The notes below the pieces were generated by a model. The model was not told the DNA's origin. It saw only the letters and a list, made by a program, of their open reading frames with translations, and did no database searches. 57,257 nucleotides of DNA, from IMG/VR virus record IMGVR_UViG_3300045391_005857; one strand, given 5' to 3'. The translations under genes were made by a program, and so were the position numbers. Origin of the DNA: an uncultured virus (IMG/VR IMGVR_UViG_3300045391_005857) (lineage: Duplodnaviria > Heunggongvirae > Uroviricota > Caudoviricetes). Below are positions 17,280-57,257 of the stretch, in pieces (the first letter of the stretch is position 1; each line of letters begins with the position of its first letter).

Positions 17280-17291
17280 GGAGTCTTTGCT

Positions 17292-18388: not shown

Positions 18389-18389
18389 C

Positions 18390-29548: not shown

Positions 29549-29595
29549 GTCGGCCGGGCCGACTGATGCTTTCTCATACCAGCAGGGAGGCTGCG

Positions 29596-31248: not shown

Positions 31249-31999
31249 GCCCAAGCTCTCCATCCTGGTGATTACGTTGCAGTCACGAGCCGAGAAGCTC
31301 GCCAATCTGCTGGCTTGTTTGCGACCCCAGCTTACGGACGACGTCGAACTTTTGCAATGTTGCGACAACGGCGAGCGACAGTCCGGGGCCAAGCGGAACG
31401 AGCTGCTGTTCAAGGCCACCGGCGACTACGTCGCCTTCATCGACGATGACGACCTGGTGGCGGACGATTACGTGCAGCGGATGCTGGCAGAGATCGAGCA
31501 TAAGCCAGACGTGATTACCTTCCGCCTGCGGATGAGCCGGGACGGCAAGTTCGTCGAGCAAAAGTTCGGGCTGCACGAGCAGGACGGCCCCCAGTGGGGT
31601 ACGGATATCCGGATGACCGCTAACCACATCTGCGCCTGGCGTCGCGAGCTGGCCACGATGATGCGGTTCCCGGACTGGCTGGGCTACGGCGACGATCAGT
31701 TCTGGTACAAGCCGCTGATTGCCGCCGGCGTCGCGAAGACTGAGCGACACATCGATCACATCATGTACTACTACACGTTCTCCCGGGCGGCGACGGCGAA
31801 TCAAACCAAGGAGCGTGTGCGTGTTGCCGACAAGTGGGTTGGCAGCGGTATCCAGGCGTACTGGATGGCTGATCGGATCGTTATGGACCGACACTCCGCG
31901 CAGTTCGGTCGCGTTCGGCGGGTCTATGACGCCGGCGGACGCGAATTTGATATCGATGCAGCGGAGTTGAAACCGATCGCACTGTGCTATCTCAAGTAG
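31247..31999 (+). CDS. GT2-family glycosyltransferase
   Basis: KLSILV, GAKRN, ATGDYVAFIDDDD. Confidence 0.88.
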   Translation: MPKLSILVITLQSRAEKLANLLACLRPQLTDDVELLQCCDNGERQSGAKRNELLFKATGDYVAFIDDDDLVADDYVQRMLAEIEHKPDVITFRLRMSRDGKFVEQKFGLHEQDGPQWGTDIRMTANHICAWRRELATMMRFPDWLGYGDDQFWYKPLIAAGVAKTERHIDHIMYYYTFSRAATANQTKERVRVADKWVGSGIQAYWMADRIVMDRHSAQFGRVRRVYDAGGREFDIDAAELKPIALCYLK

Positions 32000-32959
32000 C
32001 TACTTCTTGCTGTTCTGGATGTACTCGGTGACCCGGTTGACGTGCCCGATCTGACTGGGGTGCGTTACGATCTCCAGCAGCCGGCCCTTGCTCTTGGGCT
32101 TGTAGATGCTTTCGTGGGTCTTGCTGCACTGCTCCTTCTCGCCGCCGATCGCCAGCTCGCCGCGGCCCTTCAAGGGCACGCCGCAGGCGTGGCAGTGAAA
32201 GCGCGCTTGCTGCTCGAAGGCCGCCATCGGCTGATTCCACCAGCCCGGCGTAACCGCCAGGCCCGTGTCCGGATAATCGGGCTCCTCCTGGTGCAGCATC
32301 GCCATCGCGCCGGCGATCTCGCAGAAGTAGCCCCGCAGCTCGCCGCGGAAGACGCCGATCATCGCCGACCAGTATTGGTTGACGTCACACTCGCCGATCA
32401 GCTTCCAGCGATTCTCCTCGGTGTTGGGGACACCGCCGGGCAAGACCTCCATGTCCTGCATGGCGTAGTACGGCGAAGCGTGCCGCGAATCGTCGGTGAC
32501 GCCGACGGGCCGGGCTTCGGGCCAGTCGCGGCGGAACTCTTCCAACGCCTCCTGGTCGAGGTGGACGTTGATGTTGGAGACGTGCGGGTTGAACGTCTCC
32601 CGCGCGATCGCGCCGTTGCCAAAGAGCTTGTTGCACCACAGCCCCCGTCGCTCGAACGGGATATACCGCTGCATGATCTTGCAGAGCTGCTCGAACTGCG
32701 GGTGCAACGCGGGGTTGCCGCCGAACACACCCACGACGCCGAAATAGTCCTGCAAGCTCTGGCAGGCGACTTCAAATTGTTCGACCGTGATTCGGCCCGG
32801 CTTGCCGCCGAGGTTCGAGGCCTGCGTGCAGCCGAAGCAAGCCTTATCGCAGCTCCGCGTCACCCAGATTTGTAGGACTCCCTGGCGCCACACTGTCGGG
32901 CGGCGATCCCTCGGGGACTTCATCGTGGGGGGTAGGGGCAGCATTGGCATCCTTTCCAT
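32000..32959 (-). CDS. radical SAM protein
   Basis: VTRSCDKACFGC (CxxxCxxC), FGGNPALHP, C-terminal Cys; start uncertain. Confidence 0.85.
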   Translation of the reverse strand: MERMPMLPLPPTMKSPRDRRPTVWRQGVLQIWVTRSCDKACFGCTQASNLGGKPGRITVEQFEVACQSLQDYFGVVGVFGGNPALHPQFEQLCKIMQRYIPFERRGLWCNKLFGNGAIARETFNPHVSNINVHLDQEALEEFRRDWPEARPVGVTDDSRHASPYYAMQDMEVLPGGVPNTEENRWKLIGECDVNQYWSAMIGVFRGELRGYFCEIAGAMAMLHQEEPDYPDTGLAVTPGWWNQPMAAFEQQARFHCHACGVPLKGRGELAIGGEKEQCSKTHESIYKPKSKGRLLEIVTHPSQIGHVNRVTEYIQNSKK

Positions 32960-34109
32960 AATTGAGCCGGAGTCGTTCGATCTCGGCCGCCAACTCGCGG
33001 CCGCGACGCCGGTAATCATAGAACGCCTGGGCCCTCTTCGCGAAGTCCTCTTGTTTGTCCTTCTCGTAAGTGTCGGCCGTATGGCGGATCAGCTTGGAGA
33101 GGGCGTGCAGCGGGATGTCGCTCGATATCCGGATCAAATTGCCCTCGATCTCCGGCAAAACGTCGATCTCCGGCAGGTTCGTGATGACGCGGCAGCCGCA
33201 GGCCGTGGCCTCGATTAGCTTGCGGAGGGCATAGCCCAGCCGCGAAGCGGTGCAGATCGCAACCTTGTAGTGCGTCAGCGCGAACAGGTAGTTGTCGGTG
33301 TCGGGGCCGTTGGCGGCATAGCCCGGGAACGACCGCGTTTCCACCGGCAGGTACTGGGCGTTAGCGTACAGTCGATTGCGGAGCGGGTAATAATCGCGGG
33401 CCGCGTTGCCCGAGAGCAGGCACGTGCGGTCGCGGGGGTTGGCGCCGTAAGGCGGGATCTTCGCCGGATCGACCGAGTGCCAGGTGCGGATGAGGTGCTC
33501 GCGGCGGATGTACGGCGCTAGCGCACAGACAATGTCCGGGTGGTAGTAAGCAATCCAGCCGTGATAGCCCATCTGCTCGGCGGCGTCGCGATGGTAGTGC
33601 GGCTCCTGGTGGGCGTCTTTGCAGATCGTGAGCTTGAAAATGTCCGGGCGATGCGACAGGTGGTGGTAGTTCTGAAAGCCGGCGTCTTTGTTCAGGCAGG
33701 TGCTGGAGCCCGGGTCCCACTCGCGCTTGTCTTGCACGATGAGCGTCCGCACCGGGGCGGCGAGGTTGAGGATTGTCGGCACGTCGCGTTGATCGTCCGG
33801 ATAGCCAGGTCCCCATAGGCGATAGCCGGCCAATGCTAAGCCTTCTTGCATCTGCCAGCCTTCGTCGGTCATGTGCTGGGCGAAGCTGTGTAGCCCCAGC
33901 ATGTGTAAGCCGCCCTCCTGCGGAATGTATTCCGGCGGATCGAGCCGCACCACCGGCGCCGTCGCTCCGCGACGTCGGCGGAGCACACGTCGCTTCAATA
34001 GTTTACGGGCTGTTGCCTGGGTACGGTTGCGGATGGACTTTCGTTGTACCGGGCCGGGCGTCGCGGCCCGTCGGATCGTGTTGACGACACGACGGTTTTG
34101 ATTGGTCAT
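32844..34109 (-). CDS. GT-B-like glycosyltransferase
   Basis: YPLR, Y..AL..YKVAICT, RKLIEATACGCRVIT. Confidence 0.7.
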   Translation of the reverse strand: MTNQNRRVVNTIRRAATPGPVQRKSIRNRTQATARKLLKRRVLRRRRGATAPVVRLDPPEYIPQEGGLHMLGLHSFAQHMTDEGWQMQEGLALAGYRLWGPGYPDDQRDVPTILNLAAPVRTLIVQDKREWDPGSSTCLNKDAGFQNYHHLSHRPDIFKLTICKDAHQEPHYHRDAAEQMGYHGWIAYYHPDIVCALAPYIRREHLIRTWHSVDPAKIPPYGANPRDRTCLLSGNAARDYYPLRNRLYANAQYLPVETRSFPGYAANGPDTDNYLFALTHYKVAICTASRLGYALRKLIEATACGCRVITNLPEIDVLPEIEGNLIRISSDIPLHALSKLIRHTADTYEKDKQEDFAKRAQAFYDYRRRGRELAAEIERLRLNYGKDANAAPTPHDEVPEGSPPDSVAPGSPTNLGDAELR

Positions 34110-34663
34110 TTTGGTTTGATGAAGAACCAGCTCTCGATCTCTTCCGCCGATGTCTTGTACGGCGTGAGCTGATGTTGTTCAGCGAAAGCGATAACGGCCG
34201 GGCGGACTTCGTCGGCCCACTCCCATTCGTTGAGATCATGGCCCGACATTACGCCGCCAGGTCGAACCCTGGTCCACCAGCTTTGCATATCTTCTTCGAC
34301 GAAGCGGCGGATGTGATTACCGTCGATATGTACGAAATCCAGCGCGGCGGGCTCGATCTGGGCGGCTGCCTCGGTCGAGAGCATTCGCCAGAGTCGCACA
34401 CGGTTGGCGAAAGGCGCTAGCGTATCGACGGCTGCCTGATAGTCTGCATCGCGATCGCCGTAAGCTACCATGTCGTGATAGCTGGGCAGCTTTCGCCAGG
34501 GGTCCACGCAGATCAGCTCGCCGGGCCAGGCATTAAGAAACAGCGCGGCGTACTCGCCGCGATGGGTGCCAACCTCGACCGCTGTGCCGGTGAGGTCCCG
34601 TGTCCGCAGGAAACTACCAAAATCGACACGGGTCGGTAGTTCGGGGTGAGCGACAATGTCCAT
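34106..34663 (-). CDS. class I SAM methyltransferase (Methyltransf_24-like)
   Basis: VEVGTHRG, VDPW, DFVHIDGNH, PGGVMSGHD. Confidence 0.9.
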   Translation of the reverse strand: MDIVAHPELPTRVDFGSFLRTRDLTGTAVEVGTHRGEYAALFLNAWPGELICVDPWRKLPSYHDMVAYGDRDADYQAAVDTLAPFANRVRLWRMLSTEAAAQIEPAALDFVHIDGNHIRRFVEEDMQSWWTRVRPGGVMSGHDLNEWEWADEVRPAVIAFAEQHQLTPYKTSAEEIESWFFIKPK

Positions 34664-34710
34664 GTCGCTTGTTATAGTGTCACCGACGCGCTGTTTGCTA
34701 GGGAGTTTCT

Positions 34711-35055
34711 ATGCTGTTAGCGATCGACTTCGATCGGACGTTCATGCTGGACCCGCCCCTCTGGGGCGCTTTTCTGAAAGCGTTAGTCCTCAGCGACCAC
34801 CGGGCCATCGTCGTGACTTGTCGTACGGCACGGGAGGACAATTACGAGCTGATTCGCGATGCGCTGGCGCGTGCCGGGGCGTTGCATTCCGTGGAAGATA
34901 TTTTGTGCACCAGCCATCGACCGAAGCGCACTTTCGCAGTCGCCTGCGGGTATCAGGTCGATGTTTGGGTGGATGACATTCCCGAAGTTATCGGAGCCCG
35001 CGACGAGGCCGAAGTGCGCGAGATCGAGGCCCGTTTCCACGTCGCCTCGACGTGA
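34711..35055 (+). CDS. HAD-family phosphatase
   Basis: AIDFDRT, VVTCR, K, VWVDD. Confidence 0.8.
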   Translation: MLLAIDFDRTFMLDPPLWGAFLKALVLSDHRAIVVTCRTAREDNYELIRDALARAGALHSVEDILCTSHRPKRTFAVACGYQVDVWVDDIPEVIGARDEAEVREIEARFHVAST

Positions 35056-35101
35056 CGTTCGGCGACATGCTATCTTACGCCCACCTCCGGAGACCTGCCT
35101 G

Positions 35102-35287
35102 ATGCCCACACAGACTGCTCCGCGTGAAATGGTCGTCAACCCTGCCGACTTTCAGCTCTTGCTGACGTCGCGCCGTAACATGATCCGCGAGAATCGCCGG
35201 CACCAAGGTTTGTTGGGTCTCCGCGATCGCGACACCGGTGAATTATTCTTGACCGAGGAGCGGAAGCTCAAACCGGTAGCTGTATGA
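35102..35287 (+). CDS. hypothetical protein
   Basis: GGAG RBS, ATG 35102. Confidence 0.55.
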   Translation: MPTQTAPREMVVNPADFQLLLTSRRNMIRENRRHQGLLGLRDRDTGELFLTEERKLKPVAV

Positions 35288-35484
35288 GCGACAATCTGGA
35301 CGTCGAATTCATGTCCCGCAGCGACCTCAAGGCTGAGGTGACCAAGCTCCGCGGCGAGAACAAAGGTCTGGTACTTAGAAACCGGGTGTTGCGGGCTCGC
35401 CCCGATCTACCGGTCGAACGAATGGATTTCCACGACGCCCTCGCCAGGGCTCAGGAAGAATTGGCAAAACTCCGTGGCAGCTAA
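35284..35484 (+). CDS. small coiled-coil protein
   Basis: ATGA-coupled. Confidence 0.6.
   Translation: MSDNLDVEFMSRSDLKAEVTKLRGENKGLVLRNRVLRARPDLPVERMDFHDALARAQEELAKLRGS
35370..35382 (+). repeat. dispersed 13-mer, copy 4
   Basis: Exact copy inside a CDS (VLRN). Confidence 0.9.
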
Positions 35485-36154
35485 TCATTGTCCGATCTGC
35501 GACTTCAAAAGCGGCTTTAAGAACTTTCGTGGCCGCGAGCGTGCTCAGTGTCCGACCTGCGGCTCACTGGAGCGGCACCGGCTCGTCTGGTTGTACTGGC
35601 GAGAGCAGACAACGCTGTTCGACGGTCAGCCCAAGCGGATGTTGCACTTCGCCCCCGAGGCTTGCTTCCGCGGCCGGCTGCCAAACGTCCCCGGCATCGA
35701 CTACCTCAGCGGCGATCTTAATCCGGGCTCCGTGAAAGCGATGCGGAAACTTAACCTGACCAGGCTGGACCTACCCAGCGAGACGTTTCAGGTGTTCCAT
35801 TGCTCCCATGTGCTGGAGCACATCCCCGACGACGCGGCGGCGATGCGCGAGCTGTACCGCGTGCTGGCTCCGGGCGGTTGGGGCATTATTCAGGTGCCGC
35901 TACGCCGGGGTGAGCATACCTACGTCGATCCCAATGCGAGGACCGCCGAGCAGCGGACGCGAGCCTACGGCCAGTACAACCACGTGCGAATTTACGGTGA
36001 ATTGGACCTTGCCCCGGCGCTGCGGATGGCCGGTTTTACGGTGGAGCCGACGCAGTACGGGCATGATCTGCCGTGGCAGATTGCCGGGAAATACGGGGTA
36101 GATCGTGACGAACTGCTGTTTTTCTGTTACAAAAATGGCCACGCGGAATCTTAA
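35474..36154 (+). CDS. Zn-ribbon plus class I SAM methyltransferase
   Basis: CPIC...CPTCGSLERHR, LHFAPE, CSHVLEHI, RVLAPGG. Confidence 0.88.
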   Translation: MAANHCPICDFKSGFKNFRGRERAQCPTCGSLERHRLVWLYWREQTTLFDGQPKRMLHFAPEACFRGRLPNVPGIDYLSGDLNPGSVKAMRKLNLTRLDLPSETFQVFHCSHVLEHIPDDAAAMRELYRVLAPGGWGIIQVPLRRGEHTYVDPNARTAEQRTRAYGQYNHVRIYGELDLAPALRMAGFTVEPTQYGHDLPWQIAGKYGVDRDELLFFCYKNGHAES

Positions 36155-36198
36155 TCCGCCAGGAGTCTTCAAGTCACTGATGGACTGTTGGAGTAGCA

Positions 36199-36411
36199 AT
36201 GTTAGGTACGATCAAAAACCTCGCCGAAAAGGGATTCGGCTTTATCACCAAAGATGGGGCAGCTCGTGGGGATAAAGACTATTTCTTCCACTGCCGCGCC
36301 TTGCAGAACGCTTCCTTCGAGGAGTTGGAGCGGGGCCAACGTGTGGAGTTCGACACGGAGCCCGACCCACAAGGTCGCGGCGACCGGGCCATTAACGTAC
36401 GTCGCGTTTAG
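36199..36411 (+). CDS. cold-shock domain protein
   Basis: KGFGFI (RNP1), DYFFH (RNP2), GQRVEF...RAINV. Confidence 0.92.
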   Translation: MLGTIKNLAEKGFGFITKDGAARGDKDYFFHCRALQNASFEELERGQRVEFDTEPDPQGRGDRAINVRRV

Positions 36412-40076: not shown

Positions 40077-40394
40077 ATGCAGAGCAGCGACTGGCTCACA
40101 ATTGCCTTGTGGGGCTTGGGTGCACTGGGCACCGTGGTCGCAACTCTGATGGGTGTGCTGGCCTATTTCCTCAAGCGCCTCATCGATCAACTCGACAGCA
40201 CACGCCGCCAGGTGTTTTCGCTGCGAGATGAACTTCGCTCTATGCACGGGAAGTTCAAATTGTTCAAGATTGAGGTGCGCTTGCTGCTAACCAAGGCCGG
40301 CGTCAACACTCGCGAGATCGAAGAACTCGTCAAGCTGGCTGACGACGACGAGATCGCTGGTCCCTTGGACGACGTTGAGCTGCTGCCACCATGA
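40077..40394 (+). CDS. single-TM plus coiled-coil protein
   Basis: AAGGAGG RBS, N-terminal TM. Confidence 0.7.
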   Translation: MQSSDWLTIALWGLGALGTVVATLMGVLAYFLKRLIDQLDSTRRQVFSLRDELRSMHGKFKLFKIEVRLLLTKAGVNTREIEELVKLADDDEIAGPLDDVELLPP

Positions 40395-43300
40395 ACGATA
40401 TCTACTATTACGACGTTGGTGTAACGGTCGGCGCGATCTATCAGGCGTTACTGCGACGACCATCGGTCGAGAAGATTGCGGCCACGGCCGAACTGTCCTA
40501 CGGTCTGAAGGGACAGCTCTACAAATCGAGTGCCGGCTGGATTTTGCTGACGGTGCCGAATCATCTCGGCCGCGGGGCTTTCGATGCCCTCGGGGAGACC
40601 GGCATCGAGCTGCCGCTTAACAGCAAGGGCATCTACAACGCGCATATCTCGGTCATGCGACCCGAGGAGGTCGAGACGATCCCCGGCGGGGCCGGCGCGA
40701 TCAGCGAGCGGGGGCATGACTTCGCCTACACGCTAGGTCCGGTACGATCGGTGAAGCCGCACGGCTGGAGCGACGTCGCGAAGGTCTGGTACATCGAAGT
40801 TCACAGCCCTCAACTAGAACAACTGCGGAGAAGCTATGGGTTATCGTCACGACCGCGCGAAAACAAACATCGCTTCCACATCACGATCGCTATAAGAAAG
40901 TCGCAGGTCCTCCGGGAGAATGACAAGTCCAAAGCGGCTTCGTTCATTCACTACCCGGAGGAGATGTTTCGCGGTCGACTGGCGACAGCGGGACCTCCGC
41001 AGCTCGCCGAAGATGCTTTCCCCTGTTGTGATGCGGAGGCGGAGACTGGCGAGACGATCAAGACGGGGGAGGAAGCGATCGCGGCGCCAAAGGGTGAACT
41101 GTGCCCGTATTGTCAAGCGCGTTTAGAGTACAACCCCGACGATCAGACGTGCAACCATTGCGGCAAAGAGTATCCGCCGGAGAAGCTGGCGGCAGAGTCT
41201 GCCGGGCTCCATCCGGCAGTTGCACAGACAGTGCAACAGCATGGACAGATAGGTCCTGGCTTCCCCTACCAAAGCACAATCGGCCACGGGAAAGTTGGTC
41301 CCTTGATGCATTCGGACGCCGGGCTGGATTTTTTGCACCACGTACATGGCGATGCCGCCCGCGCTGGTTTGGGGCAGTCGTTACGCCGTAGCGGTTACGA
41401 CCCGACCAGCGAGCAGGCAACTAACGTCGGGCAGCAATTGTTCAATCAGCGATGGCCAACACAATTACCGCCGGTGCAATCAGGCAATGTTAGTCAGGCC
41501 GCTGGTGTCGGTGTGCAATTAGCCCCCGGTAGTTTTGAGCAGTCTTTGTACGGCATGCCTGCACACGGCATACTTAATCACGAGTTGGAGCATGTGCGAC
41601 AGGATCGCGTACCTGGCGGCGGGGCCGGGGTAGAGGTTGGGCCTAGTCTCGGTGATTTGGTATTCGCGAACGAGACGGCGAGACAGGTTACCGGGCAGCC
41701 TACGCAGCATCAGGTGACTTTTCCGAGTGGAAAAGAACACGACATCAACTGGATGACGGATCAAGCTAAGCAGCACGGGTATTTCGGCGGGAAGTCAATG
41801 GATGACTTATTGGCGACGCCGGCCGGTCAGCAGTGGTTACAGCAGGCGATTGGCGAGAAGGGGGCAGGTCTGCTGCCGTCGGTACACCTCCAGCCGCAAC
41901 AGCAACGCGTCTCGGACGAGATCAAACACCAACGCGTCCGTAAGCTCCTCTACCACTCCCTCGGCTCAGGCAAGACGCTGTCGTCTATCGCGGCCGCGGA
42001 ATCGGCTGGCGAGCCCTACCTGGCGACTGTGCCCGCGGCGCTGCGGCCGAACTTCAAGAACGAGCAAGCCCGCTGGACCGATCAACAAACGCCATCCGAG
42101 GTCGAGAGCTATTCCGCCCTCGCCAAGGGCGTCCCCCAGCAACACTTCGGCACCGCGATCTTCGACGAAGCCCAGCGACTGCGGAATGAGAACTCGCTAC
42201 AGACACAGCACGCTAAAGAAGTTGCGCGGCAGACGCCCAATCTGCTCATGCTCTCCGGCACTCCGATCGTGAACGGGCCAGGCGACTTCGCCCCGCTGGC
42301 CGAGATGCTCACGGGCAAGCCGCAGGACTCCAAGACGTTTGAGCAAACCTACGTCGGTCAGAAGACCGTGCGGCCTAGTCTGATGGCCCGCTTCCGCGGC
42401 GTGCAGCCGGCGAAGGTGCCGGTACTTAGAAACCAAGACCAGCTCAAAAAGCTGCTCGCCGGCCACGTCGATTACCACGCGCCGGCGAAGCCCGACGTCG
42501 AGCAAGTCGAGGAGCGTTATGAGACGCCCATGTCGGGCGAGCAGACGAAACTCTACCAGGCTTTCTGGAATCAGTTGCCGTGGGTGCTCCGCTGGAAGCT
42601 GCAGCACGAGTTCCCGCTCTCCAAGCAGGAGATCGGTAATCTATCCTCGTTCCTGGCCGGCCCTCGTCAGGTTTCCTTGTCAACGCTGCCCTTTATGCGC
42701 GGCCGTCGCGACCCGTACAAAGCCTTCCAACAATCACCCAAGCTCCAGCGGGCGATGCAGCTCGCTGAAGAGACGCTCGGCAGCAATCCCAACGCCAAGA
42801 TCGTCGCGTTCTCAAATTTCCTCGAAGCGGGCCTGCAGCCGTACGCAGCGGCGTTGGCTGCTAAGAAAATCCCCTATGCCATCTTTCATGGCGGCATGAA
42901 TGATGCCGAGCGCAAGCGGGCCGTCGCCGACTACAACGCTAATCGTATCCGGGCACTCCTCATCGCTCCGGCCGGCGCCGAGGGCATCTCCCTCAAGCAT
43001 ACCAACGCGCTGCAGCTCCTCGACCCGCACTGGAACGAAGCCCGCCTCGATCAGGCGATCGGCCGCGGCATCCGCTTCGATTCGCACACCGATCTACCGC
43101 CCGAGCAGCGGAAGGTGCGGGTGCAACGGTTCTTGTCGACGCTGCCGCCAGGCGTGCTATCGCGGCTGTGGCGGTACATCATTCAAACCAAGCCCAACAC
43201 CGAAAAAAGCAGCCCGGGTGTCGACCTGTACCTGGAGCACCGGGCCCGGAAGAAACAGGAGCTGAATAACCAGTTCCTCAATCTGCTCAAGGAGATCGGA

Positions 43301-43576
43301 TCACCCAAAGCCGCGGCCGCGACTGGCAGTTACTACCTGGACGCTGTTCAGCAAACGCCAGTCAGCTATGATTCATCCCAAGGTGCATTGCAGAACCTGC
43401 TAATGCACCTGGGCAAGGTCAGGGCTCGTGGCGATCGGGCGATCACAGAAGCCGAGAACTGGGACAGCTTGCAGGACGCCGCGGACCCAAATCGGTCACT
43501 TCTCAGGTTGCAGAGGCAACTAGCAGGCGAACCACCACTCGTCTCCCACCCTCTGGATAGATTGCTGCATGCTTAA
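40391..43576 (+). CDS. multidomain 2H phosphoesterase / Zn ribbon / HExxH / SNF2-family helicase
   Basis: HISV and HITI; CPYC..CNHC; HELEH; HSLGSGKT, DEAQ, SGTP, EGISL, QAIGRGIRFDSH. Confidence 0.88.
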   Translation: MNDIYYYDVGVTVGAIYQALLRRPSVEKIAATAELSYGLKGQLYKSSAGWILLTVPNHLGRGAFDALGETGIELPLNSKGIYNAHISVMRPEEVETIPGGAGAISERGHDFAYTLGPVRSVKPHGWSDVAKVWYIEVHSPQLEQLRRSYGLSSRPRENKHRFHITIAIRKSQVLRENDKSKAASFIHYPEEMFRGRLATAGPPQLAEDAFPCCDAEAETGETIKTGEEAIAAPKGELCPYCQARLEYNPDDQTCNHCGKEYPPEKLAAESAGLHPAVAQTVQQHGQIGPGFPYQSTIGHGKVGPLMHSDAGLDFLHHVHGDAARAGLGQSLRRSGYDPTSEQATNVGQQLFNQRWPTQLPPVQSGNVSQAAGVGVQLAPGSFEQSLYGMPAHGILNHELEHVRQDRVPGGGAGVEVGPSLGDLVFANETARQVTGQPTQHQVTFPSGKEHDINWMTDQAKQHGYFGGKSMDDLLATPAGQQWLQQAIGEKGAGLLPSVHLQPQQQRVSDEIKHQRVRKLLYHSLGSGKTLSSIAAAESAGEPYLATVPAALRPNFKNEQARWTDQQTPSEVESYSALAKGVPQQHFGTAIFDEAQRLRNENSLQTQHAKEVARQTPNLLMLSGTPIVNGPGDFAPLAEMLTGKPQDSKTFEQTYVGQKTVRPSLMARFRGVQPAKVPVLRNQDQLKKLLAGHVDYHAPAKPDVEQVEERYETPMSGEQTKLYQAFWNQLPWVLRWKLQHEFPLSKQEIGNLSSFLAGPRQVSLSTLPFMRGRRDPYKAFQQSPKLQRAMQLAEETLGSNPNAKIVAFSNFLEAGLQPYAAALAAKKIPYAIFHGGMNDAERKRAVADYNANRIRALLIAPAGAEGISLKHTNALQLLDPHWNEARLDQAIGRGIRFDSHTDLPPEQRKVRVQRFLSTLPPGVLSRLWRYIIQTKPNTEKSSPGVDLYLEHRARKKQELNNQFLNLLKEIGSPKAAAATGSYYLDAVQQTPVSYDSSQGALQNLLMHLGKVRARGDRAITEAENWDSLQDAADPNRSLLRLQRQLAGEPPLVSHPLDRLLHA
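42421..42433 (+). repeat. dispersed 13-mer, copy 5
   Basis: Exact copy inside the helicase CDS (VLRN). Confidence 0.9.
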
Positions 43577-50071: not shown

Positions 50072-50662
50072 ATGAAGACGTTTCGAAAACTGTCCGTGCT
50101 CTTGTTTGCCCTGATGATGCTGTGCACCCTCTGCGTGGCGACGCCCGCTTCTGCCGTGGAAGACTATTTCGTCTTTGCGACCGCAGCGCCGACCTCATTG
50201 CCGAACGTGCTCAGCGACTACGACGTGCTCCCCGACCAAGCGCGGGCCAGTACGAGCGACCTGGAGGTCGCGGCCGTGGATGTTGCCGACTTATCGCAAT
50301 ACAGCGTCAACGGCGAACGGCCGAGCGGGGCTGCATTGTCGCCTAAGCCGCAATTCCAGGCGCCGATGCAAAAGCAATTCCAGGCCCCCACGCAATTTCA
50401 GTCCCCCAAGCAGTTTAGTAGCTCTCGCGCCTCCGGGTGTTTGCCGGGCCGCGCTGCTCGCTTGGATCGACGTGCTGACGTAGCCGCCGCCCGCCGGGCG
50501 GGTGGATGCTCGGACGCTTCGGCTTGTGCCGACGGCAGTTCGTGCAGCGGCCCCAGTCGCACGGTCTCGGACGCCGAATATGCGGGCGGCTGCAGCGGCA
50601 ATAACAGTTGCGACGGCCAAGGCTGCAGTGGTGGCGGTCGCGGTTTGTTACGTCGCCGCTAA
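50072..50662 (+). CDS. secreted protein with Cys/Gly-rich C-terminus
   Basis: AAGGAG RBS, signal peptide, QFQ repeats. Confidence 0.7.
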   Translation: MKTFRKLSVLLFALMMLCTLCVATPASAVEDYFVFATAAPTSLPNVLSDYDVLPDQARASTSDLEVAAVDVADLSQYSVNGERPSGAALSPKPQFQAPMQKQFQAPTQFQSPKQFSSSRASGCLPGRAARLDRRADVAAARRAGGCSDASACADGSSCSGPSRTVSDAEYAGGCSGNNSCDGQGCSGGGRGLLRRR

Positions 50663-51939: not shown

Positions 51940-52437
51940 ATGCCGAAGGGGAGCATGCTGAAGTTCTTCCGCGATCGCGGAGGGCCGAACTCTCCGCACG
52001 GCGGATATCTTCAATGGCCGGGTACAGTCGATGGCTTCCCGGTCCGCTCGAACTCGCCGCTGGCTCCAGACCTGAAGCAAAGCGAGTTCGACGAGCTACC
52101 GCTCAGCTTCACCTACAAGTCCGAAAAGTTCGAGCTGTGGCGACCGGAGCAGAAGGCACATTTTGATGAGATCATGGATCGGATCGTCAACGGTTGGTAC
52201 TTGAAGTACAACCGCAACGATACGACCTCGACGGAGGGTGTGACGGTTTGGTTGGAGTGGGTTCAGATTTACGGTGAGGATATCACCGGCAAGACGCCAG
52301 GAGCGATCGTCCATGCAAAGCCAGTCACTCTCACCCCCGCCGTCCCTGCCATCCCCCAGCCGACTCGCCCCGCCCCGATCTCTAGCGTGTCACACGCCCT
52401 CCTCGGTTGGCCAGACGACGGTCAAACAGGCCCTTGA
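51940..52437 (+). CDS. hypothetical protein
   Basis: 165-aa ORF. Confidence 0.7.
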   Translation: MPKGSMLKFFRDRGGPNSPHGGYLQWPGTVDGFPVRSNSPLAPDLKQSEFDELPLSFTYKSEKFELWRPEQKAHFDEIMDRIVNGWYLKYNRNDTTSTEGVTVWLEWVQIYGEDITGKTPGAIVHAKPVTLTPAVPAIPQPTRPAPISSVSHALLGWPDDGQTGP

Positions 52438-53224
52438 TCCGCAGATCATGAAGAAGCAAGAGCTGCTCCAGTCGCTCTTGCATTTGGGCTTAGCAGGCGC
52501 GGGCATCGGTGCCGGCATTCGTGCCGGCACCGGGCTGCACCAGCTGCTCATCGCCGGCAAACCTAAGCCGGCCACGACGCTCCCTACGCCGGACACGGTC
52601 CCTGTGCCGGTGCTCCGGCCCGATCCGACCGAGATGAGCGAGCCGGATGACGGCGTGGAGGGCGAGCCGTCGATCGCCAAGATGGCGGAGAAGCTGGCGG
52701 CCGAGCAATGGCTGCCGCAGCCGATCGCCGATGCGATGCCGAATCTTTCCAACTCGGGGCACCCTTTTGCTTCCTGGCAAGGCATGCCGGCCGCGGTGGG
52801 TGTCGGCACGCTGGGCGTCGCCGGCGGCTACTCGCTCATGGACTGGTTGGCCAAGCATCGTCGCAAGGCCGAGCAGAAGGCCGACGTCGACGACGCCCGC
52901 GACGAGTTCCGCAGCGCCCTGGCCAATGAATACAACACGGCCATGTCGGCTAAACAGGCTAACGAGCTGGACGCTGCCTTCGACGAGTGGCAGAAGCAAG
53001 CCAATGGTCGGCAGCAACTTGCAGACATCGGCAACCTCGCCGGCGGGATGTATGGTGCAGCCGCGCTGGCTCTCGGCGGCGGCACGGCTTACATGACGTA
53101 TAAAGCGATGAAGGAACGCAGTGCGCAGAAGCTCTTGCAGAAAGCAATCGCCGCCCGCGCGCGACAGCGATCCACGCCGCAACCGATCTACGCCGTGCCG
53201 ACCAATGACCTTGCGACTGTGTAA
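52313..53224 (+). CDS. Gly/Ala-rich probable virion protein
   Basis: KQAL, KMAEKLAA and KQAN x2 motifs; three hydrophobic helices. Confidence 0.65.
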   Translation: MQSQSLSPPPSLPSPSRLAPPRSLACHTPSSVGQTTVKQALDPQIMKKQELLQSLLHLGLAGAGIGAGIRAGTGLHQLLIAGKPKPATTLPTPDTVPVPVLRPDPTEMSEPDDGVEGEPSIAKMAEKLAAEQWLPQPIADAMPNLSNSGHPFASWQGMPAAVGVGTLGVAGGYSLMDWLAKHRRKAEQKADVDDARDEFRSALANEYNTAMSAKQANELDAAFDEWQKQANGRQQLADIGNLAGGMYGAAALALGGGTAYMTYKAMKERSAQKLLQKAIAARARQRSTPQPIYAVPTNDLATV

Positions 53225-56200
53225 TGACCAGTATTCTCGATCCACCGGGCTCTTCCCCCGCACCTGCTAAGCCCAAACTGCGCCGCTTCGACGATACCCA
53301 GTCCACCCGGTCGGCGATTTTCGACAATGTGCTCCACGCCGCGAAGTCGATCGAGCCTATCACCAATCCGCGGCATACGCTCTCGCTGACCAATCTGAAA
53401 TACACCGGTCCCGAAGGTTACTCGCTGGCCGATCAGAAGAAGGCCATTCTCTCCAACCAGTCGTTGCATCGTCGGCTGCAGGGCACCTGGCAGCTTACTG
53501 ATACTGCGAGCGGTAAGCCGCTCGCCTCGCGTACAGCTACGATTGCGCACGTGCCCTGGATGACCGATCGCGGGACGTTCATCTACAACGGTACCGAATA
53601 TACGATGGCCAACCAATTTCGGTTGCTGCCGGGCGTCTACACCCGCCGCAAGAGCAACGGCGAGCTGGAGGCCCACGTCAATGTTGCTAAAGGTCTGGGC
53701 CACCGGCTGCATCTCGATCCGGAGAGCGGTGTCTTCCACGCGCAGTTCGGCCAGGCCAAGATCCCGCTGTACCCGCTCTTAAAGACGCTCGGCATCCACG
53801 ACTCCAAGCTGCGGGAGGTGTGGGGCAACGACCTCACGGCCGCCAACGCCGCCAAGGATGACCCGCAGGCGATGCGGAAGCTGTACACCAAGCTGCTGCG
53901 GTACGGCACCGACACCGACGACATGTCGAAGCGGGCGGCGATCGCTAAGGTCATCTCGCAAATGGAGCTTGATCCGGCCGTCACGAAACGCACGCTCGGC
54001 CAGTCGTACAAGAATGTTTCTGCGGACGTTATCCTGGCGGCTACGAAGAAGCTGTTGGACATCAACCGCGGCGAGGCAGAGGAGGACGATCGCGATCACC
54101 TGGCTTACCAGCGGGTGCTCGGTCCCGAGGATATGTTCGCCGAGGCGATGCACCGCGCTCGCGACGTCGGTCGCAAGTTGCTATGGAAGGCCGCGGTGAA
54201 GAACACACTCGATCATGTGCCGGCCGGAGCCTACACGCCAGCGATCAACGATACATTGCTCAACAGCGGCCTGGGCATGCCGCTAGAAGAAGTCAATACC
54301 GGGGAGATTTTCGATCAGCTCACACGTATCACGCGGATGGGGCGAGGCGGTATCCCATCGCTCGATGCGGTGCCCGATGAGTCGCGCGCGGTGCATCCCT
54401 CGCAATACGGCTTTGTGGATTTTTTACGTACGCCAGAATCTTCCAAAGTAGGCGTCGATCTTCGACTTGCGCGCTCGGCCCTCAAGGGAGATGACGGCCG
54501 AGTCTATACTCCGGTACGCGACGTGCGGCGTGGCGCAATAGCCCCCAAGTCGCCCCAGGAACTAGCCGACAGCGTGCTGGCATTCCCGGGCGAAATGGAG
54601 AGTGGTCGCCCATACGTCCACGCGTTTGTGCGGGGCAAACAAAGAGTCATCCCGCGACAGCAGGTGGAATACTCTTTGCCATCAGGGGAAGATGTTTTTA
54701 GTCCCCTTGGCAATCTGATTCCGATGAAGTCGGCTGTCAAAGGACAGCGATCCGTTATGGCGGCGCGCATGGTGACGCAGGCCTTGCCGCTCCGTGATCC
54801 AGAAGCTCCGCTAGTACAAAGTGGGGTACCTAATCAGAAGGACCACTCTTATGAACACGAATATGGTACTCGCCTTGGCGCTATTCGACATTCTGGTTCT
54901 GAGCCTGGTCGCGTGCTTTCTGTTGCGCCTGACAGTATCGTCGTGGAGAGCAGCGGGGGTCGGCAGACGATCGAGCTGCACCAGCATCTCCCCTTCAACC
55001 GCAAGACGTTCTTCCACCAAGAGCCGGTCGTCCACCCAGGCGACACCGTCCAGCCGGGACAACTCCTCGCGCGCTCGAATTTTACAGATTCCAACGGTGC
55101 CGCAGCCCTCGGTAAAAACGCCCGCGTGGCCTATATCCCATGGGGTGGGATGAACTTCGAAGATGCCAATGTGGTGTCGCGGTCGTACGCCGACCGTATG
55201 ACCTCGGAGCACATGTATCAGCACGGCGTCGAATGGGATGACAACACCAAGCGGGGTAAGAGCGCGTTCCAGGCGCTCTTCCCCGCTAAATATCCCAAGC
55301 AGGTCCTGGCGAACTTCGATCAGCACGGCGTCATTCAGCCGGGCACCGAGGTTAAGCAAGGTTCGCCGCTTATTCTGGTCGCCCGTCAACGCGAGCCCCG
55401 CAAAGGCGTCGTGCACCGCTCGCAGGGTCCCTCGTTTTCCGACGAGAGCGTGACGTGGGATCACCACGCGCCGGGCGTCGTCACCGACGTCGTGCATACC
55501 GGCAAAGGCGTGCAGGTCGTGGTGAAGACGGCACACGGCCTGGAGGTCGGCGACAAGCTCAGCGGGCGGTACGGTGACAAAGGCGTGGTGGCTGCGATCG
55601 TCGACGATCACGAGATGCCGCAGGATGCGAGCGGGCAGCCGTTCGAGGTGCTGCTCAATCCCAGCGGTATCTCGACCCGTACGAACCCCGCCCAGATTTT
55701 CGAGGCTGGCCTCGGCAAGATTGCCGCCGCGCATGGCAAACCGTACAAGGTGCAAGATTTCTCCGGCACCGACGATCTCAACGAGTACGTTACGCAGGAG
55801 CTAAATAAACACGGGCTCCAGGCTCGCGAAACGATTACCGATCCTCGTACCGGCCGGCAGATCCCCGACATCTATACAGGTAATCGCTGGCTGATGAAGT
55901 TGCACCACACGGCCGAGTCGAAGTATCAGGGTCGCGGACTGGGCGCTTACACGGCGGACGAAACGCCGGCTAAGGGCGGTACCGAAGGCGCCAAGCGGGT
56001 CGGCATGCTCGAACTCAACTCCCTGCTCTCGCACGGAGCCACCAATGTCGTCCGCGACATCGGACTCGTCCGCGGCCAGGCCAATCCGCAGTACTGGTCG
56101 CAGTTCATGGCCGGCTTCAAACCACCCACGCCTAAAGTACCGCACGTCTACGAGAAGTTCGTCAACCAGCTCAAGGCCTCCGGCATCAACGTGGTCCGCG

Positions 56201-57257
56201 ACAACAACCGGATCAATATCATGGCCTTGCGGGATAGCGACCTGGAACATCTGACCGGCGACCGCGAGCTGCAGAACGTCGAGACGGTCGACTGGCGAGA
56301 CTTCCTCAAGCCGATCGACGGCGGTCTGTTCGATCCTCGGCTCACCGGCGGCCCGGGCGGTAATCGCTGGTCGCACATCACGCTGCAGCACCCGCTACCA
56401 AACCCGGTAATGGAAGAGCCCATCCGGCGGTTGCTCAATCTGACGACGCCCCAATTCCACGACGTGCTCAGCGGCAAAGAACAGTTGCAAGGCCGTACCG
56501 GCCCCGAGGCGATCTCCGCTGCTTTGAATTCGATCGATCTCGGCAAAGAACTGGAACGAGCCCGCATCGAGTGCCACAGCAACCGCCGCACGGCTCGCGA
56601 TGCGGCGATCCGTCGCTTGAAGTACCTGAAATCGGCACAAGAATCGAACACGCATCCGAGGGAGTGGATGTTATCGAAGGTCCCCGTCTTGCCGCCGGCC
56701 TTTCGCCCGGTGTCAACTATCGGACCGAAGAAGCTGCCGCTCGTAGCGGACCCCAACTATCTCTACAAGGAGGTGTTCGACGCCAACCAGGCGTGGAAGG
56801 ATGTCGCGAAGGATATCGGCGACGCTGGTGACGAGCAGTTGGCGACCTACAAAGCATTCAAGGCTGTGACCGGGTTGGGCGATCCGATCCAGCCGAAGAA
56901 CCAAGAACGCCGCGTAAGAGGAATCCTCGAACATGTCTTCGGCTCTTCTCCCAAAACAGGTGCTGTACAATATCGATTACTGGGAAGACCAGTTGATCTC
57001 GTCGGTCGTGCGGTTATTGCACCGGACCCTGACCTGGATATGGACCAAGTTGGCGTCCCCGAGCATCGAGCTTGGGAAATCTATAAACCCTTCATTGTCC
57101 GACGACTCGTCCGCAGCGGCATGCCCCGAATTCAAGCCGCTCGGGCCGCTGAAGAGAGACACGAGGATGCTCGGAAAGCCCTCCTCCAAGAGATGGAAGC
57201 GCGGCCGGTTATCATCAACCGTGCCCCGACGCTCCACCGGTACGGGGTGATGGCGGC
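53224..57257 (+). CDS. rpoBC: fused beta-beta' DNA-directed RNA polymerase (3' partial; not in ORF track)
   Basis: Stop-free frame from ATG 53224: PWMTDRGTFIYNG, DDRDHL, VHPSQYG..RTPE, MNFEDA, GDKLSGRYGDKG, MKLHH, GAKRVG, then GLFDPRLTG, VPVLPPAFRP, LLGRPVD, NRAPTLH. Confidence 0.95.
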   Translation, partial: MTSILDPPGSSPAPAKPKLRRFDDTQSTRSAIFDNVLHAAKSIEPITNPRHTLSLTNLKYTGPEGYSLADQKKAILSNQSLHRRLQGTWQLTDTASGKPLASRTATIAHVPWMTDRGTFIYNGTEYTMANQFRLLPGVYTRRKSNGELEAHVNVAKGLGHRLHLDPESGVFHAQFGQAKIPLYPLLKTLGIHDSKLREVWGNDLTAANAAKDDPQAMRKLYTKLLRYGTDTDDMSKRAAIAKVISQMELDPAVTKRTLGQSYKNVSADVILAATKKLLDINRGEAEEDDRDHLAYQRVLGPEDMFAEAMHRARDVGRKLLWKAAVKNTLDHVPAGAYTPAINDTLLNSGLGMPLEEVNTGEIFDQLTRITRMGRGGIPSLDAVPDESRAVHPSQYGFVDFLRTPESSKVGVDLRLARSALKGDDGRVYTPVRDVRRGAIAPKSPQELADSVLAFPGEMESGRPYVHAFVRGKQRVIPRQQVEYSLPSGEDVFSPLGNLIPMKSAVKGQRSVMAARMVTQALPLRDPEAPLVQSGVPNQKDHSYEHEYGTRLGAIRHSGSEPGRVLSVAPDSIVVESSGGRQTIELHQHLPFNRKTFFHQEPVVHPGDTVQPGQLLARSNFTDSNGAAALGKNARVAYIPWGGMNFEDANVVSRSYADRMTSEHMYQHGVEWDDNTKRGKSAFQALFPAKYPKQVLANFDQHGVIQPGTEVKQGSPLILVARQREPRKGVVHRSQGPSFSDESVTWDHHAPGVVTDVVHTGKGVQVVVKTAHGLEVGDKLSGRYGDKGVVAAIVDDHEMPQDASGQPFEVLLNPSGISTRTNPAQIFEAGLGKIAAAHGKPYKVQDFSGTDDLNEYVTQELNKHGLQARETITDPRTGRQIPDIYTGNRWLMKLHHTAESKYQGRGLGAYTADETPAKGGTEGAKRVGMLELNSLLSHGATNVVRDIGLVRGQANPQYWSQFMAGFKPPTPKVPHVYEKFVNQLKASGINVVRDNNRINIMALRDSDLEHLTGDRELQNVETVDWRDFLKPIDGGLFDPRLTGGPGGNRWSHITLQHPLPNPVMEEPIRRLLNLTTPQFHDVLSGKEQLQGRTGPEAISAALNSIDLGKELERARIECHSNRRTARDAAIRRLKYLKSAQESNTHPREWMLSKVPVLPPAFRPVSTIGPKKLPLVADPNYLYKEVFDANQAWKDVAKDIGDAGDEQLATYKAFKAVTGLGDPIQPKNQERRVRGILEHVFGSSPKTGAVQYRLLGRPVDLVGRAVIAPDPDLDMDQVGVPEHRAWEIYKPFIVRRLVRSGMPRIQAARAAEERHEDARKALLQEMEARPVIINRAPTLHRYGVMA

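What the first reader, a model, noticed from the sequence alone, without database searches (positions are those of the whole stretch)
53224..57257. Single-chain beta-beta' RNA polymerase missed by the ORF track
A stop-free frame of 1344 codons runs to the window edge. A ~990-aa bacterial-like beta ends at ...FVNQLKASGINV (~56190) and continues directly into beta' (RINIMAL...ETVDWRDFLKP...NRAPTLH). Fusions are known in Helicobacter and Wolbachia, and phage multisubunit RNAPs exist, but this one is compact, divergent and collinear with the cellular enzyme. It is TAATG-coupled to a KxA protein, so it may be virion-packaged. The catalytic NADFDGD motif should lie just beyond the window.
Basis: partly seen in the sequence, partly recalled or inferred. 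Interest (0 to 1): 0.85.

Follow-up and report, generated by a model that had tools for sequence, protein, structure and literature searches.

The report
Phage RNA polymerase: beta fused to half beta-prime
The open frame at the window's end is the first 92% of a phage gene that joins the whole RNA polymerase beta subunit to the front half of beta-prime, while the back half of beta-prime is a separate gene in every relative, so it is an unusual two-chain enzyme and not the single-chain polymerase first proposed.

Summary
A stop-free frame of 1344 codons (53224-57255, +) runs off the window. It goes from RNAP beta (C-terminus at residue ~990) straight into beta' within about 10 residues.

The 'single-chain' reading does not hold:
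- In 82 of 82 related loci the fused ORF carries D[FY]DGD. In 81 of 82 it stops 86-94 residues later.
- A separate ~625-aa beta'C gene lies downstream in 75 of 82 loci. The other 7 loci end too soon to show it.
- A metagenome contig whose protein is 96% identical has NADFDGD, stops 116 residues past the window edge (inferred 1460 aa), and has a 628-aa beta'C gene about 1.1 kb on.
- 0 of 16 long family members have beta'C in the same chain; their extra length is inteins.

The family is large: more than 150 clusters at 50% identity, on phage contigs of about 200 kb. Cultured members are Salmonella phage Arash (gp206/gp216) and Vibrio phages D69/D148/D181.

Relatives have one RNAP set, a sigma70-like protein, and no detectable alpha or omega. 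The beta' zinc ribbon is deleted, and the window's protein has 1 cysteine in 1344 residues.

Arash particle proteomics found gp206, gp216 and sigma (PMC10585845), so virion packaging is plausible but not shown here.

This scan has noted the same family before on other DNA. I found no paper describing the architecture.

The parts
53224..57257 (+). 5' 92% of the fused beta::beta'N gene (1344 of an inferred ~1460 codons), cut off by the window edge
   Evidence: open frame; homologs of ~1460 aa at 56-68% identity; a 96%-identical relative continues 116 residues further and then stops.
53224..56193 (+). beta-homologous part (residues 1-990), reaching the very C-terminus of bacterial beta
   Evidence: residues 260-990 match rpoB NF001616 positions 311-1092 of 1096; residues 103-992 match positions 96-1058 of the 1104-aa beta chain 8gzg_C. 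ASGINV aligns to beta 1370-1375 of 1380.
54928..55953 (+). Rpb2 domain 6 (beta catalytic double-psi barrel region), residues 569-910
   Evidence: PF00562, E=1.3e-56, 192.7 bits.
56194..56214 (+). Short join between the end of beta and the start of beta' homology (residues ~991-997)
   Evidence: alignment A2; the model shows a beta C-terminal helix leading into a hairpin across the join. Block-mean pLDDT over model residues 171-210 is 55, 79, 56 and 89, so the junction itself is only moderately supported.
56215..57255 (+). N-terminal part of beta' (residues ~998-1344) up to NRAPTLHRYGVMA; the catalytic loop lies beyond the window
   Evidence: residues 1086-1344 match rpoC TIGR02386 positions 156-418 of 1147; residues 1070-1344 match beta' chains at 142-421. 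Foldseek top hits are beta'/gamma chains.
56344..56370 (+). Site where the beta' zinc ribbon (CxC...CxxC) is deleted (residues 1041-1049, TGGPGGNRW)
   Evidence: Salmonella 'CLCGKYKRLKHRGVICEKC' aligns to gaps in the window and in 3 of 3 phage homologs.
56749..56880 (+). Clamp-helix (sigma-docking coiled-coil) region of beta', retained but 13 residues shorter than in Salmonella
   Evidence: That this is the sigma-docking region is from established RNAP structure knowledge (recalled).
53222..53226 (+). TAATG stop/start overlap with the upstream gene
   Evidence: The exact overlap is not conserved in relatives (5 of 77 loci by a crude script).
52448..53224 (+). Upstream neighbour, probably 258 aa, with three Gly/Ala-rich hydrophobic segments and no family match; homologs lie directly upstream of the fused gene in relatives
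   Evidence: tblastn hits in 27 of 82 loci; no family.
40391..43573 (+). SNF2-type helicase with an N-terminal 2H-phosphoesterase domain; homolog of Arash Gp217, a possible RNAP partner
   Evidence: Helicase_C, SNF2-rel_dom, 2H-SAK; residues 495-970 match Gp217 1-472, 32% identity, E=2e-76; homologs in 55 loci, directly after the fused gene in L043, L045 and L047.

Best explanation
The frame encodes the large subunit of a two-chain, bacterial-type RNA polymerase of an uncultured tailed phage of about 200 kb.

Shown:
- One polypeptide carries all of beta joined through a few residues to the N-terminal ~470 residues of beta'. In relatives this part includes the Mg-binding D-F-D-G-D loop, so both double-psi barrels of the active site sit in one chain.
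- In relatives the chain stops about 88 residues after the catalytic loop. This is roughly where beta' is split in cyanobacteria and in phiKZ/AR9-type phages.
- In relatives the rest of beta' (bridge helix, trigger loop) is a second protein of ~625 aa encoded 1-7 kb downstream.
- The window cuts the gene 116 codons before its inferred end, so the catalytic loop, the stop and beta'C are not in the window.

Inferred:
- beta::beta'N and beta'C assemble into a catalytic core without alpha or omega. The covalent beta-beta'N link stands in for the alpha-dimer assembly platform.
- A phage sigma70-family protein (the Arash gp10 type) directs the core to promoters.
- The enzyme is probably made late, carried in the particle, and used for early transcription.

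My odds: architecture about 0.9; sigma dependence about 0.6; virion carriage and injection about 0.4.
For: Fusion in the window:
-.

Gene end and split:
- 82 of 82 loci have xxD[FY]DGD in the fused ORF, and 81 of 82 stop 86-94 residues later.
- 119 of 120 database homologs have xxDFDGD and end 87-99 residues later.
- An Arash-gp216-like gene lies downstream on the same strand in 75 of 82 loci. The other 7 loci end within 2.6 kb of the match.
- beta'C matches rpoC positions 548-1048 of 1147 and carries Rpb1_5. It aligns to the bridge-helix and trigger-loop regions of Salmonella beta'.
- The nearest relative, L101, is 90.6% identical in nucleotides and 480 of 501 in residues. It has NADFDGD, then 88 residues, then TAA; an inferred length of 1460 aa; then ORFs of 254 and 83 aa; then a 628-aa gene with Rpb1_5 at E=1.4e-18.

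Same lineage:
- Homologs of the window's upstream genes lie upstream of the fused gene in 27-71 of 82 loci, in the same order in the best-scoring loci listed.

Phage, not cell:
- Window gene content.
- Only 10 hits in 185,579 species genomes, all in metagenome bins.
- NCBIfam rpoB score is 294 bits against a cut-off of 896.

Partners in 5 relatives (4 of them at least 98% complete):
- One Rpb2_6 match each.
- alpha 0 of 5 and omega 0 of 5, with controls positive in 14 of 14 genomes.
- An Arash gp10 homolog in 5 of 5. It has Sigma70_r3 above the cut-off in 4 of 5, and its profile matches solved SigA/RpoD/RpoS chains at E down to 9e-12.

Virion:
- Arash particle mass spectrometry found Gp206 (128 peptides, 3516 spectra, the most detected protein), Gp216, sigma Gp10 and helicase Gp217 (PMC10585845, passages of section 16 and Table 2).
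Against: - The window itself shows neither the catalytic loop, nor the stop, nor beta'C, nor sigma. tblastn of these against the window gives only E >= 0.13. Everything about the 3' end comes from relatives.
- The closest relative is a different contig (90.6% nucleotide identity) that overlaps only the last 1507 bases.
- alpha and omega were sought with Pfam models only, so divergent or non-homologous stand-ins would be missed. Two conserved ORFs without any family match sit between the two RNAP genes in relatives.
- Pfam sigma region 2 found nothing in 0 of 5 relatives. The sigma-like protein is divergent and has not been shown to bind this core.
- Virion carriage rests on a homolog only 33% identical. 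That particle preparation yielded 116 proteins, including ribonucleotide reductases and RNA ligases, and its authors note that carry-over of abundant proteins is possible.
- The structure model is mediocre overall (pLDDT 63.7, pTM 0.53).
- No phylogeny was built.
Confidence: 0.88

Rival explanations
1. True single-chain beta-beta' polymerase: in this particular phage the frame continues past the window through the whole of beta'.
For: The window shows no stop. Full-length rpoBC fusions exist in some bacteria (NCBIfam models NF007172 and NF011417 exist).
Against: 81 of 82 relatives stop 86-94 residues after the motif. So does a 96%-identical relative. 0 of 16 long family members carry Rpb1_5 in the same chain. 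119 of 120 homologs end 87-99 residues after the motif.
Confidence: 0.02
2. The same two-chain polymerase, but made only inside the infected cell (a non-virion enzyme for middle or late genes). On this reading its detection in Arash particles is carry-over of an abundant protein.
For: The Arash particle proteome lists 116 proteins, including ribonucleotide reductases and RNA ligases, and its authors raise carry-over themselves (PMC10585845, passage). Relatives have only one RNAP set, whereas phiKZ-type phages keep separate virion and non-virion enzymes (PMC7598289, passages).
Against: Gp206 was the single most detected protein in Arash particles, above the major capsid protein. In Arash the gene sits next to the portal gene. 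The near-absence of cysteine and the loss of the zinc ribbon fit a protein that must leave the cytoplasm, though this is only suggestive.
Confidence: 0.4
3. A cellular rpoB-rpoC region from a bacterial contig, or an assembly or frameshift artefact that merges two genes.
For: The best solved-structure matches are bacterial beta and beta'.
Against: There are no ribosomal or nusG genes nearby, and the content is phage-like. Scores are far below the rpoB and rpoC equivalog cut-offs. The same join is found in more than 150 clusters at 50% identity and in 82 loci. The only hits in genome assemblies are 10 metagenome bins.
Confidence: 0.01

Closest known systems
Salmonella phage Arash gp206 (1525 aa) + gp216 (606 aa), and Vibrio phages D69/D148/D181 (OQ632216.1; OZ195729.1 and relatives)
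   Same: Same architecture: beta::beta'N in one ORF that ends 87-90 residues after the catalytic motif, with a separate beta'C downstream. The zinc ribbon is deleted. A sigma-like gp10 and an SNF2 helicase (Gp217) have homologs in the window's lineage.
   Different: Identity is only 31-33%. The motif is AADYDGD, not (N/G)ADFDGD. In Arash the portal gene sits just upstream and beta'C lies about 4.8 kb away. The Arash authors annotate gp206 simply as 'beta' and gp216 as 'beta'' and do not mention the fusion or the split (passages read).
Cyanobacterial/plastid RNAP with beta' split into gamma (rpoC1) and beta'' (rpoC2)
   Same: beta' is split after the catalytic double-psi barrel. P0001 matches the rpoC1 gamma models. 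The top fold hit is the 617-aa chain D of Syn7942 RNAP, which by its length I take to be gamma. The best full-length beta match is the ~1100-aa beta chain of 8gzg/8syi.
   Different: In those organisms beta is a separate subunit and alpha, omega and the zinc sites are present. By profile coordinates the phage split falls some tens of residues earlier than the end of gamma (my estimate).
phiKZ/AR9-type jumbo-phage multisubunit RNAPs
   Same: Phage-encoded, with no alpha or omega, beta' split after the DPBB, a virion-packaged form, and an SNF2 helicase linked to the RNAP genes (PMC7598289 and PMC7824862, passages).
   Different: Those enzymes have beta split into 2-3 pieces and never fused to beta'. 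They have two paralogous sets and no sigma factor. Their sequences are far more divergent from cellular enzymes.
mReC phages (Weinheimer and Aylward 2020, PMC7481178)
   Same: Uncultured Caudovirales with bacterial-like, easily alignable beta and beta' carrying NADFDG.
   Different: In supplementary file 5 (part 11 of 15 read) every row lists beta (999-1487 aa) and beta' (887-1391 aa) as different ORFs. The main text mentions fusion only for crAss-like phages.
Full-length rpoBC fusions of Helicobacter/Wolbachia (NCBIfam NF007172, NF011417)
   Same: The same order and the same join: the C-terminus of beta runs into the N-terminus of beta'.
   Different: Those carry the whole of beta' (~2,840-2,890 aa profiles) in a cellular operon. 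Here the score is 281 bits against a cut-off of 5372, and only the beta part matches.

Membership tests
Bacterial-type multisubunit RNAP catalytic core (beta + beta') | beta catalytic region (Rpb2 domain 6 / rpoB homology to the C-terminus) | tested here: met
   PF00562, E=1.3e-56; rpoB positions 311-1092 of 1096..
Bacterial-type multisubunit RNAP catalytic core (beta + beta') | beta' catalytic loop NADFDGD | tested here: inconclusive
   The window ends about 21 residues before the motif. It is present in 82 of 82 related loci and in the 96%-identical relative L101.
Bacterial-type multisubunit RNAP catalytic core (beta + beta') | beta' C-terminal half (bridge helix, trigger loop) | tested here: inconclusive
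   Absent from the window (all E >= 0.13). Present as a separate gene in 75 of 82 related loci and in L101.
Bacterial-type multisubunit RNAP catalytic core (beta + beta') | alpha dimer and omega subunits | tested here: not met
   PF01000 in 0 of 5 and PF01192 in 0 of 5 relatives' whole records, with controls positive in 14 of 14 genomes. No Pfam hit in the window. Pfam-level search only.
Bacterial-type multisubunit RNAP catalytic core (beta + beta') | beta' N-terminal zinc ribbon (four Cys) | tested here: not met
   Deleted in alignment A2. There is 1 Cys in 1344 residues.
Arash gp206-type beta::beta'N fusion clade | One ORF running from the beta C-terminus into the beta' N-terminus | tested here: met
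   In 149 of 150 representatives the best stretch spans the join (my reading of the table).
Arash gp206-type beta::beta'N fusion clade | Stop about 88 residues after the catalytic motif, with a separate beta'C gene downstream | not testable with these tools
   The window ends first. Met in 81 of 82 and 75 of 82 relatives and in L101.
Arash gp206-type beta::beta'N fusion clade | Conserved upstream gene neighbourhood | tested here: met
   homologs of five upstream window genes in 27-71 of 82 loci, in the same order in the best-scoring loci listed.
Full-length rpoBC fusion (Helicobacter/Wolbachia type) | Whole beta' in the same chain; cellular operon context; equivalog score | tested here: not met
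   (0 of 16 with Rpb1_5). (phage context). (281 bits against 5372).
mReC RNAP (Weinheimer and Aylward) | Separate beta and beta' ORFs, each at least 800 aa | tested here: not met
   (methods passage). (table part 11 of 15). Here the layout is beta::beta'N of ~1460 aa plus beta'C of ~625 aa.
phiKZ/AR9-type split RNAP | beta split into 2-3 polypeptides; two paralogous sets; no sigma | tested here: not met
   beta is intact and fused. There is one Rpb2_6 match per relative genome. A sigma-like gene is present in 5 of 5 relatives.

The most novel reading that the evidence does not exclude
This clade's only polymerase is a self-sufficient, particle-borne holoenzyme made of beta::beta'N, beta'C and a phage sigma, perhaps with the Gp217-type SNF2 helicase. 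It is packed in the head and delivered with the DNA, which makes early transcription independent of the host. On this reading the covalent beta-beta'N link replaces the alpha2/omega assembly platform. The loss of both zinc sites and of nearly all cysteines would then be an adaptation to passing unfolded through the tail or the periplasm and refolding without metal or disulfide problems.
Probability: 0.35. Interest if true: 0.8.

Novelty: new variant of a known kind. Interest (0 to 1): 0.6.

Why it matters
Multisubunit RNA polymerases have a fixed subunit plan in cells: alpha2, beta, beta' and omega.

This phage lineage redraws the subunit boundaries:
- Both catalytic barrels sit in one chain, and the mobile half of beta' sits in another.
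- alpha, omega and the beta' zinc ribbon are missing; the one relative's beta'C that I aligned also lacks the second zinc site.
- A sigma-type factor is kept.

That makes it a natural minimal sigma-dependent RNAP. It bears on how the core assembles without alpha and on why beta' splits repeatedly at the same place.

It would also be a candidate compact orthogonal transcription system. If it is injected with the DNA, it would be the first sigma-using virion RNAP.

The lineage is abundant: more than 150 clusters at 50% identity and 165 IMG/VR loci. It has cultured members (Arash and the Vibrio D-phages), so the questions can be tested.

Tried and rejected
- No whole genome is held for the window.
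- A viral-contig scan with the single protein found no relative. The alignment-based scan did.
I later ran residues 601-1344.
- megablast of the last 7 kb against phage records gave no match.
- Pfam Sigma70_r2 was found in 0 of 5 relatives, and Arash gp196 in 0 of 5. Only gp10 has homologs.
- PHROGs at a loose threshold gave nothing firm for the upstream operon. The only hint is a portal family at E=0.0025 for 50072-50659.

Literature:
- Of the mReC supplementary table I read only part 11 of 15.

Weak or rejected analyses:
- The overlap-conservation script is crude. It picks starts by proximity and accepts a stop in any frame. I use it only to say that the exact TAATG overlap is not general.
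- The isolated beta fragment of the structure model was poor, and I draw nothing from it.
- 'KxA protein' is rejected.
- Two alignment or scan calls failed because of my frame errors. The first was corrected; the second was dropped.

Not done:
- I built no phylogeny. The only cellular sequences at hand were a few Firmicutes and Gammaproteobacteria contigs, too few to test deep placement.
- Complex prediction, read mapping and the protein atlas were not used.
Full report
**1. Observation**

The frame is real. The ORF listing with open ends gives 53224..57255 (+), ATG start, 1344 codons, 3' open, and the translation has no stop. It appears only when open-ended frames are requested, which explains why an ordinary ORF track missed it.

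Pfam finds Rpb2 domains 2, 3 and 6 (residues 258-910; domain 6 at E=1.3e-56) and then Rpb1 domain 2 at 1254-1299.

NCBIfam places residues 260-990 on rpoB positions 311-1092 of 1096. It places residues 1086-1344 on rpoC positions 156-418 of 1147.

Against a real enterobacterial beta, the window's 'ASGINV' (985-990) aligns to residues 1370-1375 of 1380. In a multiple alignment, beta' homology begins about residue 998, seven or so residues later.

The stop of the upstream gene overlaps the start as TAATG.

The label 'KxA protein' is not supported. The neighbour has 5 K-x-A tripeptides against 2.46 +/- 1.39 in shuffles. It is better described as a ~258-aa protein (probable start 52448) with three Gly/Ala-rich hydrophobic segments.

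**2. Where the gene ends**

The window cannot show this, so I used relatives.

- *Protein collection.* The large collection returned more than 1,111 homologs. The best 120 are 56-68% identical, with a median length of 1467 aa. Of these, 119 of 120 carry xxDFDGD and end 87-99 residues after it.
- *IMG/VR.* A profile scan found 165 relatives, of which 80 loci were kept. Together with Salmonella phage Arash and Vibrio phage D69, 82 of 82 loci have xxD[FY]DGD inside the fused ORF. In 81 of 82 the ORF closes with a stop 86-94 residues later; the exception runs off its contig.
- *The second gene.* A homolog of Arash gp216 lies downstream on the same strand in 75 of 82 loci. The 7 without it have at most 2.6 kb of sequence after the match. 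This gene (~625 aa) carries Rpb1 domain 5 and matches rpoC positions 548-1048 of 1147. It aligns to the Salmonella beta' regions that hold the bridge helix and the start of the trigger loop (the landmark names are recalled).
- *Closest relative.* An exact search with the window's last 68 bases found a 6.6-kb metagenome contig, L101. It is a near relative, not the same contig: 90.6% nucleotide identity over the window's last 1507 bases and 480 of 501 identical residues. There the frame continues 116 residues beyond the window's edge, contains NADFDGD, and stops (TAA) 88 residues after it, for an inferred length of 1460 aa. ORFs of 254 and 83 aa follow, and then a 628-aa gene with Rpb1_5 at E=1.4e-18.
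- *Is any member a true single chain?* I scanned 16 of the longest members (1,944-3,350 aa). All 16 carry intein or LAGLIDADG domains, and 0 of 16 has Rpb1_5 in the same chain.

The protein is beta::beta'N, with beta'C as a separate gene.

**3. Phage or cell**

- The window is phage-like. It has a virion structural protein family, an SNF2 helicase, methyltransferases, and mostly unassigned ORFs on one strand. It has no ribosomal or nusG genes.
- Homologs of five genes upstream of the polymerase gene lie upstream of it in 27-71 of the 82 loci, in the same order in the best-scoring loci listed.
- Relatives sit on contigs up to 235 kb. Four of the five I searched whole are rated 98-100% complete at 200-226 kb.
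- In one genome per 185,579 prokaryote species there are 10 hits, all in metagenome bins of mixed phyla.
- Scores against the rpoB and rpoC equivalogs are a third or less of the cut-offs.
I did not build the tree.

**4. Size of the family**

An exhaustive search with residues 601-1344 found 10,080 proteins at E<=1e-3 and 1,467 at E<=1e-30. This library holds one representative per 50%-identity cluster. The best 150 are all members of this family (45-65% identity, E<=3.7e-205). By my reading of the table, in 149 of 150 the best stretch spans the join.

**5. How it probably works**

*Shown in five relatives' whole records:*
- There is exactly one Rpb2_6 match each, always the fused ORF.
- No alpha (PF01000, 0 of 5) and no omega (PF01192, 0 of 5) was found, with controls positive in 14 of 14 genomes.
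- A homolog of Arash gp10 is present in 5 of 5.
- That protein has Sigma70 region 3 above Pfam's cut-off in 4 of 5, plus a C-terminal helix-turn-helix with weak region-4 matches in 4 of the 5. Its profile matches solved SigA, RpoD, RpoS and FliA chains at E down to 9e-12 across regions 2-4.
- Neither the sigma-like gene nor beta'C is in the window. In one relative the sigma-like gene lies about 35 kb downstream of the fused gene.

*Shown in the window's protein:*
- The beta' zinc ribbon is deleted.
- The clamp-helix region is kept but is 13 residues shorter than in Salmonella.
- There is a single cysteine in 1344 residues. All 103 homologs of 1520 aa or fewer have 0 or 1 cysteine, against 7 and 15 in Salmonella beta and beta'.

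*Structure model.* An AlphaFold model of residues 801-1344 is confident for the beta'N part. It predicts a helix then a hairpin across the join, but block-mean pLDDT at the join itself is mixed (55, 79, 56 and 89 over model residues 171-210). The cut-out beta fragment is poor (mean pLDDT 63.7, pTM 0.53). Foldseek ranks bacterial beta'-type chains first, led by the 617-aa chain D of the Syn7942 holoenzyme, which by its length I take to be the cyanobacterial gamma subunit.

*Inferred:*
- The two chains form a core without alpha or omega.
- The covalent link does the job of the alpha-dimer platform. That the C-terminus of beta and the N-terminus of beta' lie close together in bacterial RNAP is recalled knowledge.
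- The sigma-like protein gives promoter specificity.

**6. Virion packaging**

The real support is external.

In Arash, particle mass spectrometry found Gp206 as the most detected protein (128 unique peptides, 3516 spectra). It also found Gp216, sigma Gp10, the portal Gp204 and helicase Gp217 (PMC10585845, passages of section 16 and Table 2).

The caveats are serious:
- The homolog is only 33% identical.
- 116 proteins were detected, including ribonucleotide reductases.
- The authors themselves allow for carry-over.

I put virion carriage at about 0.4.

**7. Comparison with what is known**

- The closest relatives are Arash gp206/gp216 and the Vibrio D-phages. They are annotated only as 'beta' and 'beta'' or as hypothetical proteins.
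- The split after the catalytic barrel resembles the cyanobacterial gamma/beta'' split and the phiKZ/AR9 split (PMC7598289, passage). Those systems do not fuse beta to beta'N.
- phiKZ-type phages also lack sigma (PMC7824862, passage).
- The mReC phages have separate beta and beta' ORFs in the part of the table I read (part 11 of 15).
- Helicobacter-type rpoBC fusions hold the whole of beta'.
- Searches found no paper that describes this arrangement.
- Earlier notes of this scan describe the same family on other DNA. I re-tested their main claims here. One difference: this window's protein has one cysteine, not none.

**8. Verdict**

- It is a new variant of a known kind (phage multisubunit RNAP), seen here as a truncated copy.
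- Interest 0.6.

Noticed in passing
window 40391-43573 (+): A 1061-aa protein. Its residues 495-970 are a clear homolog of Arash Gp217 (32% identity, E=2e-76), the SNF2-type helicase encoded right after beta'C in Arash and detected in its particles. The window's copy has an extra N-terminal ~490 aa with a 2H-phosphoesterase (2H-SAK) domain. Homologs occur in 55 of 82 loci and sit directly after the fused gene in L043, L045 and L047. It may be a RapA-like partner of the polymerase.
   Followed up: partly
family members P0044-P0273 and P0009-P0120 (not in the window): The fused gene is a hot spot for inteins. 17 of the 120 best homologs are longer than 1520 aa and cysteine-rich. 16 of 16 long forms scanned carry intein-splicing or LAGLIDADG domains at several different sites, with up to ~1,900 extra residues. 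beta'C genes of 900-1,630 aa in some loci suggest the same. The window's copy has no insert up to its cut.
   Followed up: partly
window 53224-57255; Cys codon at 56572-56574: There is only one cysteine in 1344 residues. 92 of 120 homologs have none and 11 have one. Other long ORFs of the window have 1-6 each. In L004 the cysteines of the second beta' zinc site also align to non-cysteine residues.
   Followed up: partly
relatives, e.g. L004 14395-15349; L101 minus strand 3736-4748: Two conserved ORFs sit between the fused gene and beta'C in typical relatives, one of ~200-265 aa and one of ~80-95 aa that abuts beta'C. Neither has a Pfam or NCBIfam match. They are candidates for extra polymerase subunits or assembly factors. 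They lie beyond this window.
   Followed up: partly
window 51940-52437 and 52274-53224: The longest-ORF call for the upstream neighbour (GTG at 52274, 316 aa) overlaps a conserved 165-aa gene that has homologs in 71 of 82 loci. tblastn hits to the neighbour begin at residues 54-151, so its real start is probably the ATG at 52448.
   Followed up: partly
window 29500-36400: A mixed-strand cluster of modification-type genes: a phosphopantetheine-binding (ACP-like) ORF (29566-29829), a family 2 glycosyltransferase (31154-31996), a weak radical-SAM match (32003-33019, minus strand), two methyltransferases (34109-34663 minus strand; 35474-36151), and a cold-shock protein (36199-36408).
   Followed up: no
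window 16155-19394 and 25013-25837: ORFs with weak metallopeptidase/PPC matches (16155-17276), a transglutaminase-elicitor-like match (18291-19394, E=3e-22 over about 50 residues) and a papain-like cysteine peptidase (25013-25837). Their functions in a phage are unclear.
   Followed up: no
L091-L100 (genome collection): The only hits in species-representative genomes are 10 contigs in metagenome bins labelled Planctomycetota, Gemmataceae, Thermoguttaceae, Moraxellaceae, Acidobacteriaceae or 'bacterium'. These are probably phage contigs swept into bins, though they might hint at hosts.
   Followed up: no
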